From the UHGV virus genome UHGV-0236124: a DNA stretch of 33,147 nucleotides; one strand, given 5' to 3'. The position numbers and the translations under genes are program-made. This DNA comes from a virus. Each line of letters opens with the position of its first letter. The first letter of the stretch is position 1. Shown one piece after another: positions 474 to 4,487 of this stretch. Below the pieces are notes generated by a model. It was not told the origin of the DNA. It made no database searches and saw nothing but the letters and a program-made list of their open reading frames with translations.

Positions 474-1124
474 CTCTATCAATGCTATTAGCAGGGAGAT
501 ATATCACCAGAGTTTAATGTGTGATTTTTTATTTATCGTCGAACCTGGATTGTTTATCATTGGCCTTAACAAAGTTAACGGCTAATAAGATTATTTCCAT
601 CACTTCGTGAGAGCTTCATGCCTTGAGAGGATCTCAATTTTCTTTTGCAATGAGACAGGCGCTTCCTGTTGTTATGGTATAGTACCCCGCTATTGAGCCT
701 CCTGAATAGTGATGCTGAATAACATAACCCCATGATATATCGATAAAATAATCTCTACATTTGAAAATGCACGGTAATTCTGAAATGCAAAAAATCAACC
801 AAACCAGCGCAATGCCTGAAAAAACTGACGTTCACTGGAGTGGTCGGTTTAGCGTTGCACCAATGCTCGATAGGATGTACCGTTTTTGAAAAACAACTAG
901 TTATACACTTTGTGGGAGCCTATTGGGAACCTGTTATTCTTAGAAAGCATCATTTGCTCATCACTTCAATTGACCATGATTAAAGCCAGCTATAAACTTG
1001 ACAAACAAGGTAACTAGTTGCTTAGGCCTAAGTGGGCACACCATAAGAAGCTCATGTTGGTGATGAAGCAACCCATGAAGTATCGAGAATAATTACAAAG
1101 TTCACTATCTTTGAGGTTTCTTAT

Positions 1125-1697
1125 ATGTTTTGCGAAGAAAAAGTAGCTCAAATGGCTGCATACCTACTTCTTAAGCGAGGTGGGCGCATGGCATATCTGA
1201 AATTGATGAAGCTGCTCTATCTGTCTAACCGCAAGTCGATTTTGAAGCATGGCAGGATGATCGGCGAAGATAGCCTTTACTCTATGAAATTTGGTCCAGT
1301 CATGTCGAATACGCTGAACTTGATTCGTGGTAAGGCTGAAGGTATTGGTGACTACTGGTACAACCTGATAGAGACGAACGGGCATGATGTGTTGTTGCGT
1401 TCAGATCCGAGGGAAATGGATGCAGACGAGGTCTTTGATGAGTTGAGCCGTGCAGATATCCGGATTTTAGATGAAATCTATTCTCTGTATGGGCATATGA
1501 ACCGATTTGATCTCGCAAACATGACGCATTTAGAAAGCGTTTGTCCAGAGTGGCACAATCCTGGCAATTCTCGTAAGCCTATAGACCTGAAAGAAATGCT
1601 GATCAGTGAGGGTAAAAGCGAGGATGAGGCTAATCGTATAATTGGCAAAATGGAAGAATCTCAGAAACTTAAGGAATTTTCTTTGCAATTATCATGA
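1125..1697 (+). CDS. Panacea / DUF4065 domain protein (SocA/PanA-like antitoxin-type domain)
   Basis: 190 aa; stretch AYLLLKRGGRMAYLKLMKLLYLSNRKSILKHGRMIGEDSLYSMKFGPVMSNTL resembles DUF4065 as I recall it; stop overlaps next start (ATGA at 1694-1697). Confidence 0.6.
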   Translation: MFCEEKVAQMAAYLLLKRGGRMAYLKLMKLLYLSNRKSILKHGRMIGEDSLYSMKFGPVMSNTLNLIRGKAEGIGDYWYNLIETNGHDVLLRSDPREMDADEVFDELSRADIRILDEIYSLYGHMNRFDLANMTHLESVCPEWHNPGNSRKPIDLKEMLISEGKSEDEANRIIGKMEESQKLKEFSLQLS

Positions 1698-2113
1698 CGG
1701 ATTATCAGCCATACAGGAAAGGAACTGTGCTTGCCCCAACTGGGCCATGCAATCATCTTCATGTGATTTGTAATGATCCTGTTTATTACCCCGTTAACGA
1801 TTGTTATTGTGTTTTAGTTGTTAATATTTCTAGTATCAAGGATGGTGTCCCCCACGATCCGTCTTGCGTCTTGAATTCTGGTGATCATCGCTTTATCAAG
1901 CATCCAAGTTATGTTGTTTACGCTGAAGCTATAATTTGGCGAGTGGATAACATGGTTAGAAAGCAGCGATCGGGTGAGATTTCCGTTCATGATGATATGC
2001 CAGAAGCTACATTCAATAGAATTCTGGACGGTTTTGATATATCTGATGAAGTTACGCCAAAGAACCTTAAATTTAAAAATAAATATTGCGTATCATCTAT
2101 TGATGATGAGTAA
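1694..2113 (+). CDS. hypothetical protein translationally coupled to the Panacea-domain gene (candidate toxin/effector partner)
   Basis: 139 aa ORF; ATGA overlap with upstream gene; no recognisable domain. Confidence 0.5.
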   Translation: MTDYQPYRKGTVLAPTGPCNHLHVICNDPVYYPVNDCYCVLVVNISSIKDGVPHDPSCVLNSGDHRFIKHPSYVVYAEAIIWRVDNMVRKQRSGEISVHDDMPEATFNRILDGFDISDEVTPKNLKFKNKYCVSSIDDE

Positions 2114-2326: not shown

Positions 2327-2345
2327 TCATAGCTGGTGCTTTTTG

Positions 2346-2372
2346 AAAACCCGCCTTTAGGCGGGTTTTTTC
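2346..2372. terminator. bidirectional rho-independent terminator between convergent genes
   Basis: aaaacccgcc-ttta-ggcgggtttttt; A-run on one side and T-run on the other, so it can terminate both the plus-strand cassette and the minus-strand gene ending at 2374. Confidence 0.6.
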
Positions 2373-2373
2373 T

Positions 2374-2655
2374 TTAGTGATGTTCTTTGCCCTTCTGTTT
2401 GCCTGTTCTGACCTGTTCCCACTCGATACGTCCTTCTTCTCGTCTTTTGTCTATGTATTCCGCAAGATCCTGAATATTGATGCAACGTTTTGCTTTTTGT
2501 GATGTACCGATGCGATATGTAGGTACAGGCAACTTACAAGCGTTTGCTTTTGCTTCTGCTGTGGCTGGACTCATACCAAAGTATTTTTGACTAACTGCTG
2601 AGAGTTCAATGTTTGGGGTATTGAATTCAGCCATCAGTAAAAACAAGGTATTCAT
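2374..2655 (-). CDS. excisionase-like / PrtN-family small DNA-binding protein
   Basis: 93 aa; N-terminus MNTLFLLMAEF... and KLPVPTYRIG motif are typical of PrtN/Xis-like phage proteins as I recall them. Confidence 0.55.
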   Translation of the reverse strand: MNTLFLLMAEFNTPNIELSAVSQKYFGMSPATAEAKANACKLPVPTYRIGTSQKAKRCINIQDLAEYIDKRREEGRIEWEQVRTGKQKGKEHH

Positions 2656-2691
2656 ATCATTTCTCCATCATAACCGGCTGCACCCGGTGAG

Positions 2692-3507
2692 TTACTTATT
2701 CATTTCAATAATATTATTTTCTATCATTGATTTATTTAAAACCAAAGAAGGAGCAAGATGGTTGTCTATTTTAAACAATGCATAACTTTTAAACTGTTGG
2801 TGATATCCGTAACTAATAAGGATGCTAGAAAAATCTCTTAATTCATCTTCTTTTAAAAAATTAAAATGAAATGGGTTGTCACCATTTATGAACAATGAAA
2901 CATCTATTATGCAGTATTTCTCTCCGTTGTCATTTGCATAGAAAAAAATATAAGACATTCTGTTTGTTAAGACAATGCCATTAAATTTTCTTATGTCTGT
3001 AGCTATTTTGTTTTCCATGTTTGGTGCTACATATTTATTTTCAGAAATACATTTAATTTCATCTCCAGATGTCGTGATTATATAAAAATGAAACTTATCA
3101 GAAATATCTAACTTAACTACGCCATCATTATTGTAAAGGCTGCTAAATTTTGGTGGTTCAACTTTTAAAGAATCATAGTTCTTTAAAAGAAGAGGAGAGT
3201 CAAATTTAATAACTTGTAGTATCCCTTTACCTTCAACCTCCATATTGATTGAAGATATAGCAATTGCATTATCTCTTTTATTATTCAGGATTATGGTTGA
3301 TATATGCATGTCATATATTCTACTTGCATTTGCTGAATACGACACTGTCACCTTTTTTGATATTTTTTGCACGCCAAAATATATAGTGAAGGCAGCGGCA
3401 AGAATAGATAAGAATTTAATGTCAAATAAGGACCATAGCCACATTAGTTGCTCAATTGCTTCAGAGTTAATCATTTGCTTTACCATTATCGCTGTAATAC
3501 AACACAT
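2692..3507 (-). CDS. AT-rich hypothetical membrane-anchored protein (moron)
   Basis: ORF 2692..3525; N-terminal hydrophobic helix LMWLWSLFDIKFLSILAAAFTIYFGV; strongly A+T-rich codon usage unlike neighbours; start uncertain (ATGs at 3507, 3486, 3474; the 3525 start is TTG); no clear SD. Confidence 0.5.
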   Translation of the reverse strand: MCCITAIMVKQMINSEAIEQLMWLWSLFDIKFLSILAAAFTIYFGVQKISKKVTVSYSANASRIYDMHISTIILNNKRDNAIAISSINMEVEGKGILQVIKFDSPLLLKNYDSLKVEPPKFSSLYNNDGVVKLDISDKFHFYIITTSGDEIKCISENKYVAPNMENKIATDIRKFNGIVLTNRMSYIFFYANDNGEKYCIIDVSLFINGDNPFHFNFLKEDELRDFSSILISYGYHQQFKSYALFKIDNHLAPSLVLNKSMIENNIIEMNK

Positions 3508-3628
3508 GTGTGTATATATACGCAATGCAATTATTTTGCAAGTGCTTCATTTACTATCAATAGCTACGTCACGTTATTGTTTAATGGTTCTTTATAGGGG
3601 CGGCAATAGTTAAAATTATCGCTTCCGT

Positions 3629-3650
3629 AAATGCCCCCGCAGGGGCATTT
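3629..3650. repeat. perfect GC-rich hairpin (9-bp stem aaatgcccc/ggggcattt, 4-nt loop) with no adjacent T-tract
   Basis: Read directly: aaatgcccccgcaggggcattt; lies just 3' of the YfdQ-like gene on the minus strand. Confidence 0.5.
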
Positions 3651-3662
3651 GCAGTAATGAAA

Positions 3663-4487
3663 TCAGGCGGTGAAAGTACCAATAAAGGTTTCTACTTTGC
3701 TGTCTTTGAATTTCTCAACAAGCAGATCACGAAATTCGTTAGCCATTTCTTCCTGTACCGCTTCCAGCTGAATAATGCGCAGAACCAGTACAGGACGATC
3801 GCCAGTGATAATGCTGAGGCGTAATTTAAACGGACGTTCTTTCAGACCTTCAAACGGAACGCATTTAAATTCAAATGCCACTGGCATAATGTCTTTGGTC
3901 TTCGCTTCGACAGACTCCATCAGGGAGCGTTTGCCGCTGAAGTCATTATCTTCAAAATCAGCGGTCTGGTTCGCTTCAATTGTGATTTTACGGATCGCCG
4001 CAGCCGCTTTGGTTGCCTGAATGGCGTCACCATTAGCATCAAAGCCCACAAGGTAGTCGGCCCAGTCTTCAATCCATTCTGCCAGTGACTTCTGGGAGTT
4101 ACGCTCGCCATTAACAGACAACAGAGCAGAGAACGGAGCTGTCTTTTTCAGTTTGAGAGTGGCGGTGTTATCTGCGTGACCTGGTTCATCAATAGTACCC
4201 AGGTTAAGAACACTGACGGCACGCATATTATCAGCATCGATAAAGCAGCGGGTGCCTTCATCTGCAAGATCTTTAGAATAACGAGTAAAGTCATCGATGC
4301 TGGCAGTGGAAAGCGCACCACGGAAACGGAAGCGATTTAAATTTAATTTTTCCAGATCATGAATGCGGAAATTCTCAGGCAATGCCACAGCATCGGCACC
4401 AATCTTACTGATAATTTCATTAACACCCTGAGCAGAAATAAGGGCATGGATTTGATTAATTGCGGTTGCGTCTAAGTTCTGAGACAT
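3663..4487 (-). CDS. yfdQ: YfdQ-like (DUF2303-type) prophage protein
   Basis: 274 aa, same length and similar sequence to CPS-53 YfdQ as I recall it; recollection-based. Confidence 0.55.

What the first reader, a model, noticed from the sequence alone, without database searches (positions are those of the whole stretch)
2692..3525. Strongly AT-rich membrane-anchored protein inserted in the early-left arm
This roughly 270-aa ORF has markedly lower GC than its neighbours, a single N-terminal transmembrane helix and no recognisable domain, and is followed by a GC-rich perfect hairpin (3629-3650). Composition and position (the accessory region between xis and the early-left genes) are typical of horizontally acquired superinfection-exclusion or abortive-infection genes.
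Basis: partly seen in the sequence, partly recalled or inferred. Interest (0 to 1): 0.6.

Follow-up and report, generated by a model that had tools for sequence, protein, structure and literature searches.

The report
AT-rich membrane-anchored prophage cargo gene
A real, horizontally swapped, very AT-rich gene in an E. coli prophage encodes a membrane-anchored protein of unknown function whose relatives sit in phage-defence hotspots of prophages, integrons, plasmids and satellites, so it is a good but untested candidate for a new phage-exclusion gene.

Summary
A minus-strand gene (2692-3474, 260 aa from the ATG; the 277-aa TTG reading is too long) has 28.9% GC against a 50% window mean, the lowest of any equal-length stretch. 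It has one N-terminal TM helix and matches no Pfam, NCBIfam, PADLOC or PDB entry. It is not a simple insertion. A ~925-bp cassette (about 2688-3612) replaces about 3 kb of ordinary early-left genes found in sister dusA prophages. The hairpin at 3629-3650 belongs to the conserved yfdQ module and lies upstream of the gene. The family is real: 221 representative clusters of uniform length, dN/dS 0.34, confident AF2 models. It is spread across Proteobacteria, always as a lone gene in mobile-element cargo positions: next to xis/int, at prophage ends, in the P2 gpQ-gpA (old/tin) hotspot, as a Vibrio integron cassette, on small plasmids and directly beside RosmerTA. Its GC is 11-20 points below its flanks in all 13 loci measured. 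The predicted topology puts an Ig-like domain and a C-terminal domain with no structural neighbour in the cytoplasm. The TM helix is the most conserved segment. The best reading (about 0.55) is a single-protein phage-exclusion module acting at the inner membrane. No function has been demonstrated.

The parts
2692..3474 (-). Coding sequence of the AT-rich gene, 260 aa (identical to RefSeq WP_047654657.1, 'hypothetical protein'); member of PHROG 14996 (unknown function)
   Evidence: GC 28.9%; dN/dS 0.34 against the 93%-identical allele
3364..3420 (-). Residues 19-37: the single TM helix with its juxtamembrane lysine. This is among the most conserved segments of the family (F29, small residue at position 30 in 100% of members, Y32, F33, small residue at position 34 in 84%, K37 in 97%)
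3052..3348 (-). Residues 43-141: Ig-like beta-sandwich domain with a conserved N65-x-K67-D68 loop, plus P94, K98, E101 and S111
2695..3009 (-). Residues 156-260: compact alpha/beta C-terminal domain with no structural neighbour in the PDB
3475..3612 (-). 138 bp of cassette-specific upstream DNA carried along with the gene. It contains two weak sigma-70-like matches (3560-3533 and 3514-3485), which is no more than chance gives
2688..3612 (.). The swapped cassette. Homology to sister dusA prophages ends at ~2687 on the xis side and at ~3613 on the yfdQ side
   Evidence: alternative contents of the slot
3629..3650 (.). Perfect 9-bp GC-rich hairpin immediately after the yfdQ stop codon. It is part of the conserved yfdQ module, not of the cassette
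2656..2687 (-). Conserved xis leader (RBS and a small hairpin), shared with prophages that carry a 3'-5' exonuclease gene instead of the target
2374..2655 (-). Excisionase (PrtN/PyocinActivator family, PHROG 1300), downstream of the target and in the same direction
2345..2370 (.). Intrinsic-terminator-like hairpin, called on the + strand, lying between the convergent 57-aa ORF (+) and xis (-); it is read as bidirectional by inference and would then end the target-xis transcription unit
3663..4487 (-). yfdQ (DUF2303), the conserved early-left gene upstream of the cassette

Best explanation
The gene is a stand-alone cargo ('moron') module of mobile genetic elements. It encodes an inner-membrane protein with a short N-terminal tail outside the cell, one conserved TM helix, and two cytoplasmic domains: an Ig-like beta-sandwich and a C-terminal alpha/beta domain with no structural neighbour. 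Most likely it protects the lysogen, and so the prophage, from other phages by acting at the inner membrane. My preferred mechanism is that the cytoplasmic domains recognise a phage component or an entry event at the membrane. The TM helices then pack through their conserved small-xxx-small and aromatic face, and either breach the membrane barrier (abortive infection, about 60% of this reading) or block genome translocation (exclusion without cell death, about 40%). What is shown: the gene is real and under purifying selection, it was acquired horizontally as a cassette, it works without a conserved partner, and it sits in cargo or defence positions. What is inferred: the topology, the oligomerisation, the trigger and the defence phenotype.
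For: The gene is real: there are 221 representative clusters, nearly all 235-275 aa; dN/dS is 0.34; AF2 pLDDT is 80 for the whole protein and 93.5 for the C-terminal domain. It is a cassette: the borders are sharp, it is present in 99 of about 741 genomes with the same xis, and its GC is 11-20 points below its flanks in all 13 loci measured, including Pseudomonas at 47% against 67%. It is autonomous: no neighbour is conserved, it is a lone opposite-strand gene in Pseudomonas, Acinetobacter and IMG/VR prophages, and it is a single-gene attC-bracketed integron cassette in V. parahaemolyticus. It sits in defence-type locations. One is the P2-like gpQ-gpA interval, which Rousset et al. 2022 (PMC9122126) describe as the old/tin hotspot, where more than a third of cloned systems were active. 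It lies directly downstream of a complete RosmerTA. It is next to xis/int in at least three prophage lineages and in an isolated Acinetobacter phage. It is at prophage ends after the lysis genes. It is beside a RES-domain protein in what I infer, from the primase and AlpA genes alone, to be a P4-like element, and among MazEF and other TA modules on plasmids. The host prophage also carries a Panacea-domain antitoxin-like pair and, outside the window, a SLATT plus reverse-transcriptase pair. For a base rate, about a third of unknown-function integron cassettes gave phage resistance, and about a third of those have TM helices (bioRxiv 10.1101/2024.07.02.601719). Topology: 60 of 70 members have more K/R on the C-terminal side of the TM helix (2.53 against 0.74). 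The TM helix and the juxtamembrane linker are the most conserved regions (1.73 and 1.84 bits against 1.40 overall).
Against: There is no sequence or structural similarity to any known defence, Sie or Abi protein. No conserved residue pattern suggests an activity. Promoter-like sites upstream are no more frequent than chance. In this window the gene lies inside the pL-type operon directly upstream of xis, so it may be expressed only on induction and not in the lysogen. The association with defence genes is anecdotal (about 20 contexts) and not a statistical enrichment, and cargo hotspots also hold non-defence genes. The topology rests only on the positive-inside rule.
Confidence: 0.55

Rival explanations
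1. It is an early lytic-cycle gene of the phage itself. It would be transcribed from pL upon induction together with xis, and would act on the host membrane (host takeover, exclusion of secondary infection during lytic growth, or anti-defence) and not protect the lysogen.
For: In the window it occupies the place of ordinary early-left genes (yfdR ... 3'-5' exonuclease) and points the same way as yfdQ and xis, with the xis leader kept intact. There is no convincing promoter of its own. In Klebsiella and in L026/L027 it sits co-directionally in a nin-type early region.
Against: Homologs occur where no phage lytic programme exists: in a chromosomal integron cassette, on non-mobilizable small plasmids and beside a Tn7-like transposon. 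In several prophages it is the only gene on its strand and so needs its own promoter.
Confidence: 0.12
2. It is a mobile-element cargo gene with a function other than defence, for example an envelope or stress-fitness factor for the host, a plasmid or prophage maintenance (addiction) function, or interference with other mobile elements such as conjugation.
For: It is spread over very different elements and hosts. It often lies next to TA modules and recombinases and less often next to classical defence systems. In the cited screens, roughly two thirds of hotspot or cassette genes showed no defence activity.
Against: There is no signal peptide or periplasmic domain to suggest a surface function, and no partner gene as a TA system would need. 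It recurs in slots where phage-exclusion genes are the best documented cargo.
Confidence: 0.25
3. It is not a functional gene: a chance ORF in AT-rich junk DNA, or a decaying remnant.
For: The extreme AT content and the lack of any annotation might suggest this.
Against: There are 221 homologous clusters of conserved length across Proteobacteria, dN/dS is 0.34, the AF2 models are confident, and the gene is intact in 99 complete E. coli genomes.
Confidence: 0.02

Closest known systems
Prophage 'morons' (extra transcription units in lambdoid phages such as HK97/HK022, as defined by Hendrix and colleagues; from established knowledge)
   Same: It is present in some sister prophages and absent from others at the same position, its base composition differs sharply from its flanks, and it is a single gene carried with its own upstream DNA.
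   Different: Its own promoter and terminator are not demonstrated. Here it replaces about 3 kb of genes and is not simply added between two genes. The same family also travels as an integron cassette and on plasmids.
Membrane-anchored superinfection-exclusion proteins encoded in the lysogeny module: lactococcal Sie2009 type, S. thermophilus TP-J34 Ltp, P22 SieA, T4 Imm/Sp, HK97 gp15 (from established knowledge, not retrieved here)
   Same: It is a small stand-alone prophage gene beside int/xis or the repressor, with an N-terminal membrane anchor and AT-rich composition.
   Different: There is no sequence similarity (Pfam negative for 70 members). Here the bulk of the protein is predicted to be cytoplasmic, whereas several of those proteins act on the outer face of the membrane. 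It is also larger, at 260 aa with two folded domains.
Transmembrane phage-resistance integron cassettes (BRiCs such as Deva and BrcWGS21; Kieffer et al., bioRxiv 10.1101/2024.07.02.601719)
   Same: These are single-gene cassettes with no known domain and TM helices. Deva is proposed to block genome injection and BrcWGS21 to form a membrane pore. A homolog of the target is itself an integron cassette.
   Different: Those cassettes come from mobile integrons, whereas the homolog is in a Vibrio chromosomal integron.
Cargo of the P2 gpA-gpQ (old/tin) hotspot (Rousset et al. 2022, PMC9122126)
   Same: The Providencia stuartii homolog lies between portal gpQ and replication gene A of a P2-like prophage.
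   Different: It is unrelated in sequence to Old, Tin or the other systems in PADLOC. The window's own copy is in a lambdoid dusA prophage and not in a P2-like phage.
Lactococcal AbiP and CBASS Cap15-type TM-plus-beta-domain effectors (recalled from the literature; a lead only)
   Same: The architecture is a TM anchor plus a cytoplasmic beta-rich domain. Cap15 acts by oligomerisation and membrane disruption. AbiP, as I recall it, is a membrane-anchored single-gene Abi of about 250 aa.
   Different: There is no PADLOC hit to CBASS effectors. Cap15 needs a cyclic-nucleotide signal from a partner enzyme, whereas this gene has no partner.

Membership tests
PHROG 14996 (phage protein family of unknown function) | Full-length match to the family profile | tested here: met
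   E 2.9e-178, residues 18-277 of the long ORF against profile positions 1-260 of 260
Known and candidate anti-phage defence proteins (PADLOC-DB v2.0.0) | Significant match to any of the 5,027 models | tested here: not met
   No family at E <= 0.1
Any curated protein domain family (Pfam-A, NCBIfam), including whatever Sie, Imm or Abi models those libraries hold | Match above the curated cut-off | tested here: not met
   Only Ig_TMEM131L_3 at E 0.013, 16 bits against a 28-bit cut-off; NCBIfam none; none shared among 70 family members
Moron (autonomous extra gene in a prophage) | Present or absent among otherwise collinear sister prophages, with sharp borders | tested here: met
   Borders at ~2688 and ~3612; 99 of about 741 genomes with the same xis carry it, and the others carry yfdR...exonuclease
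Moron (autonomous extra gene in a prophage) | Base composition unlike the surrounding phage genes | tested here: met
   28.9% against 50% GC, z = -3.6; 11-20 points below flanks in all 13 loci measured
Moron (autonomous extra gene in a prophage) | Own promoter and terminator, giving expression from the repressed prophage | tested here: inconclusive
   Promoter-like hexamers occur at chance frequency (5 found, 6.6 expected). There is no terminator between the gene and xis. The lone opposite-strand arrangement in other prophages implies an own promoter there
Integron gene cassette (applies to the Vibrio homolog P0192) | A single ORF bracketed by attC recombination sites within an array of such repeats | tested here: met
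   22 copies of a TAACAAAC...GGCGTTA repeat in L038; copies at 8862-8997 and 9743-9879 bracket the gene at 9001-9804
Superinfection-exclusion protein (functional class) | Blocks genome entry of a superinfecting phage without killing the cell | not testable with these tools
   Needs infection, adsorption and DNA-entry assays
Abortive-infection protein (functional class) | Infected cells die or arrest without releasing phage; protection is lost at high multiplicity of infection | not testable with these tools
   Needs liquid infection assays at low and high multiplicity, plus membrane-potential assays
Periplasm-facing signal-anchor protein (the alternative topology) | More positive charges on the N-terminal side of the hydrophobic segment | tested here: not met
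   N-side flank K/R 0.74 (D/E 1.74) against C-side flank K/R 2.53; 60 of 70 members favour C-in

The most novel reading that the evidence does not exclude
This is the founding member of a previously unrecognised single-protein anti-phage system. It is a membrane-anchored sensor-effector whose cytoplasmic C-terminal domain has no structural neighbour in the PDB. It is carried interchangeably by lambdoid and P2-like prophages, chromosomal integrons, small plasmids and satellites across Gamma- and Betaproteobacteria.
Probability: 0.45. Interest if true: 0.6.

Novelty: new member of a known kind. Interest (0 to 1): 0.42.

Why it matters
If the protein does exclude phages, it adds a compact one-gene defence family to the catalogue. 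That family is invisible to PADLOC and has a domain with no structural neighbour. The E. coli/Shigella cluster alone has about 500 member sequences. The family would also be a clear case of the same defence gene moving between prophage hotspots, integron cassettes and plasmids. In practice, such prophage genes affect the host range of therapeutic phages in E. coli, Shigella, Klebsiella, Acinetobacter and Vibrio. If it is not a defence gene, it is still a well-defined, widely mobile orphan family worth a phenotype screen.

Tried and rejected
- Fold search against AFDB50 was not available.
- Profile searches against PDB sequences were empty.
Single-protein scans of IMG/VR with P0029 and P0047 found nothing. 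The species-representative genome scan found only one locus.
- tblastn of the E. coli protein against INPHARED phages found nothing; only the Vibrio homolog picked up one Acinetobacter phage.
- Literature: no paper cites WP_047654657. HepS (PMC13043305) is an unrelated HEPN nuclease. The V. parahaemolyticus integron screen (Getz et al. 2025, doi 10.1038/s41564-025-01927-7) is not held, and the Vibrio cluster carries no VP1817-type tag, so a link to an already tested cassette could be neither shown nor excluded.
- PADLOC on the large neighbours in L048, L031 and L043 was negative.
- Rfam found no structured RNA in the cassette.
- The upstream regions of homologs share no conserved promoter.
- I considered and rejected a terminator role for the 3629-3650 hairpin in relation to this gene, because it lies upstream, belongs to yfdQ and has no U-tract.
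- I considered and rejected the 277-aa TTG start.

Full report
**1. Checking the observation**

The ORF listing gives 2692..3525, 277 aa, from a TTG. Three lines of evidence put the real start at the ATG at 3474, giving 260 aa:
- PHROG 14996 aligns from residue 18 across its whole 260-position profile (E 2.9e-178).
- RefSeq annotates exactly 2692-3474 in the 100%-identical E. coli YJ3 chromosome (WP_047654657.1).
- All homologs start at the corresponding methionine.

The GC content is 28.9% (GC3 26.1%). Neighbouring genes have 39-52%, and the window mean is 50.0%. No other 783-nt stretch in the window is as low (z = -3.6).

There is one hydrophobic segment, at about residues 19-35, inside a predicted helix at 4-38.

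Pfam, NCBIfam, PADLOC and PDB sequence searches give nothing significant.

The hairpin at 3629-3650 is a perfect 9-bp stem with a 4-nt loop. In context it folds at -19.5 kcal/mol, z = -3.6.

**2. Two corrections to the anatomy**

First, the hairpin does not belong to this gene. On the coding strand it lies upstream, directly after the yfdQ stop codon. It also falls inside the block that is 97-98% identical in about 2,760 complete E. coli genomes, including K-12 CPS-53. That homology begins at about window position 3613. The hairpin has no U-tract and was not called a terminator on either strand.

Second, the gene is not inserted between pre-existing genes. About 741 genomes carry the same PrtN-type xis, and only 99 carry the target. 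In the others, the xis-yfdQ interval holds about 3 kb of ordinary early-left genes: yfdR 5'-deoxynucleotidase, ea22-like, DUF551, a methyltransferase or PAPS-reductase, and a 3'-5' exonuclease.

The xis leader is conserved up to ~2687 and diverges exactly at the target's stop codon. The swapped unit is therefore about 2688-3612, which is the ORF plus 138 bp of its own upstream DNA.

**3. The host element**

The element is an apparently complete lambdoid siphovirus prophage of about 44 kb, integrated in dusA. A displaced dusA 5' fragment lies at about window 767-871. The integrase is at the far end, next to intact dusA and outside the window.

The prophage carries other cargo:
- A Panacea-domain protein with an overlapping small ORF (1125-2113), in a second variable slot next to xis. 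Sister prophages hold a YafO-type TA there.
- A SLATT plus reverse-transcriptase pair next to int.

**4. The gene is real and defines a family**

A word-indexed search found only 11 clusters, all in Enterobacteriaceae. The exhaustive profile search found 221 representative clusters at E <= 1e-3, and almost all are 235-275 aa.

Named members come from E. coli/Shigella, Citrobacter, Klebsiella, Hafnia, Providencia, Buttiauxella, Vibrio, Acinetobacter, Pseudomonas, Achromobacter, Burkholderia and a Syntrophobacteraceae MAG. All are annotated as hypothetical.

dN/dS between the two E. coli alleles is 0.34. It is about 0.16 in the TM and Ig-like parts and 0.61 in the C-terminal part, but that rests on only 14 non-synonymous and 5 synonymous changes.

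**5. Structure**

AF2 (pLDDT 80) predicts an N-terminal helix, a beta-sandwich at residues 43-141, and an alpha/beta domain.

The conserved positions are K37, N65, K67, D68, P94, K98, E101, S111, C142, Y179, G194 and N205. They do not form a recognisable catalytic motif.

**6. Topology and the TM helix**

In 60 of 70 members there are more K/R residues on the C-terminal flank of the hydrophobic segment (mean 2.53 against 0.74), and the N-terminal flank is acidic. By the positive-inside rule, the short N-tail faces out and both folded domains are cytoplasmic. This is a prediction, not a measurement.

The TM helix and the juxtamembrane linker are the most conserved parts of the protein, at 1.73 and 1.84 bits against 1.40 overall. 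Position 30 is a small residue in 100% of members and position 34 in 84%. F29, Y32 and F33 are conserved, and K37 is present in 97%. A plain anchor would not need this level of conservation. I infer specific helix packing, either self-association or binding to a membrane partner.

**7. Genomic context of homologs**

No neighbour is conserved across contexts, so the gene acts alone. Every context examined is a cargo position of a mobile element, except the Buttiauxella locus L031, whose nature remains unclear:
- Target then xis then int, in three different prophage lineages (WIN/L016, L002/L028, L023/L024) that carry different xis/int genes.
- Next to int, on the opposite strand, in the isolated Acinetobacter phage vB_AbaM_ABMM1.
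- A nin-type region in Klebsiella and in L026/L027.
- A lone opposite-strand gene in a Pseudomonas P22-like prophage.
- The last gene after the lysis cassette at prophage ends in Acinetobacter and in a metagenome contig.
- Between portal gpQ and replication gene A of a P2-like Providencia prophage. Rousset et al. describe this interval as the old/tin defence hotspot (PMC9122126).
- An attC-bracketed single-gene cassette in a V. parahaemolyticus chromosomal integron.
- Beside a RES-domain protein in an element of B. pseudomallei that I take to be P4-like, an inference from its primase and AlpA genes only.
- Beside a Tn7-like transposon.
- On small plasmids, next to MazEF or 'mobile mystery protein A/B'.

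In L026 (and L027, which shares those ORFs) a complete RosmerTA system lies immediately upstream (RmrT 9e-26, RmrA 6e-107).

In all 13 loci measured, the gene is 11-20 GC points below its flanks.

**8. Interpretation**

The pattern is a one-gene unit that hops between the recognised cargo or defence slots of unrelated mobile elements. It is strongly AT-biased and has a conserved membrane helix. This is what prophage-borne phage-exclusion genes typically look like.

Published screens give a prior of about one third for unknown genes in such slots. Recurrence in several independent slots raises that figure. I put about 0.55 on a phage-exclusion role at the inner membrane. Within that, I lean towards an abortive, membrane-compromising mechanism over a pure entry block, for two reasons. 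Nearly all of the protein is predicted to be cytoplasmic, and the family works in hosts as different as Vibrio, Acinetobacter and Burkholderia. The second point argues against dependence on a host-specific receptor.

The rival explanations are:
- An early lytic-cycle function (0.12). The operon position in this window favours it, but the integron and plasmid copies argue against it.
- Another cargo function (0.25).
- A non-gene (0.02), which is effectively refuted.

**9. Limits**

No homology to any characterised defence protein was found, and no experiment exists. Promoter-like sites upstream occur at chance frequency. The association with defence genes comes from about 20 contexts and is not a statistical test.

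The sequences of recently screened integron cassettes could not be compared, so prior characterisation under another name cannot be excluded.

**10. Verdict**

The gene is a new, uncharacterised member of a familiar kind, the prophage or mobile-element moron that is a candidate for phage exclusion. It is of moderate interest and is a cheap, well-defined target for a phage-challenge experiment.

Noticed in passing
window 1125-2113 (+): A Panacea/SocA-like domain protein (1125-1697, Pfam E 1.8e-18) has a 4-bp overlap with a 139-aa ORF (1694-2113; RefSeq starts it at 1727). This is a candidate PanA-type antitoxin/toxin pair. It occupies a second variable slot between the displaced dusA fragment and xis; sister prophages carry a YafO-type TA or a different gene there.
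   Followed up: partly
window ~767-871 (+): A displaced 5' fragment of dusA marks one end of a dusA-integrated lambdoid prophage. The integrase lies at the other end, next to intact dusA and outside the window, so int and xis are at opposite ends of the prophage.
   Followed up: partly
window 2345-2370: A strong GC-rich hairpin with a T-run (GAAAACCCGCC-TTTA-GGCGGGTTTTT) lies between the convergent 57-aa ORF (+) and xis (-). It is probably a bidirectional terminator. It also gives the only, sub-threshold, Rfam hits in the region.
   Followed up: no
window 3613-3662: The yfdQ 3' hairpin block is conserved at 97-98% identity in about 2,760 complete E. coli genomes whatever gene follows it. This suggests a conserved RNA 3'-end or recombination boundary of the yfdQ module.
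   Followed up: no
E. coli YJ3 NZ_AP023226.1 4466308-4468678 (same prophage, outside the window; L032 6309-8679): Next to the integrase sit a DinI-like gene, a SLATT-domain gene and a reverse-transcriptase gene. This is a retron- or DRT-like defence-type cargo at the other end of the same prophage.
   Followed up: no
E. coli E89 NZ_CP121157.1 4392499-4394335: In this strain the cassette region is split by an IS1X2 insertion: two pieces at 99.9% identity with an IS1 transposase between them (hit H4).
   Followed up: no
L026 4067-5798 (and L027): A complete RosmerTA system (RmrT plus RmrA) lies inside a prophage nin-type region, directly upstream of the family homolog.
   Followed up: yes
L048 (Acinetobacter towneri plasmid pTT1-3-3) 7842-12576 (-): Two large adjacent hypothetical proteins (883 and 694 aa), plus an AAA ATPase pair, flank the homolog and have no PADLOC hit. 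They could be an uncharacterised multi-gene system.
   Followed up: partly
L003-L006 (Klebsiella prophage) 8776-9117 (+): A 113-aa ORF starts 2 nt after the homolog's stop codon in all four Klebsiella loci. It is not found next to homologs elsewhere, so it is probably unrelated, but it could be a lineage-specific partner.
   Followed up: partly
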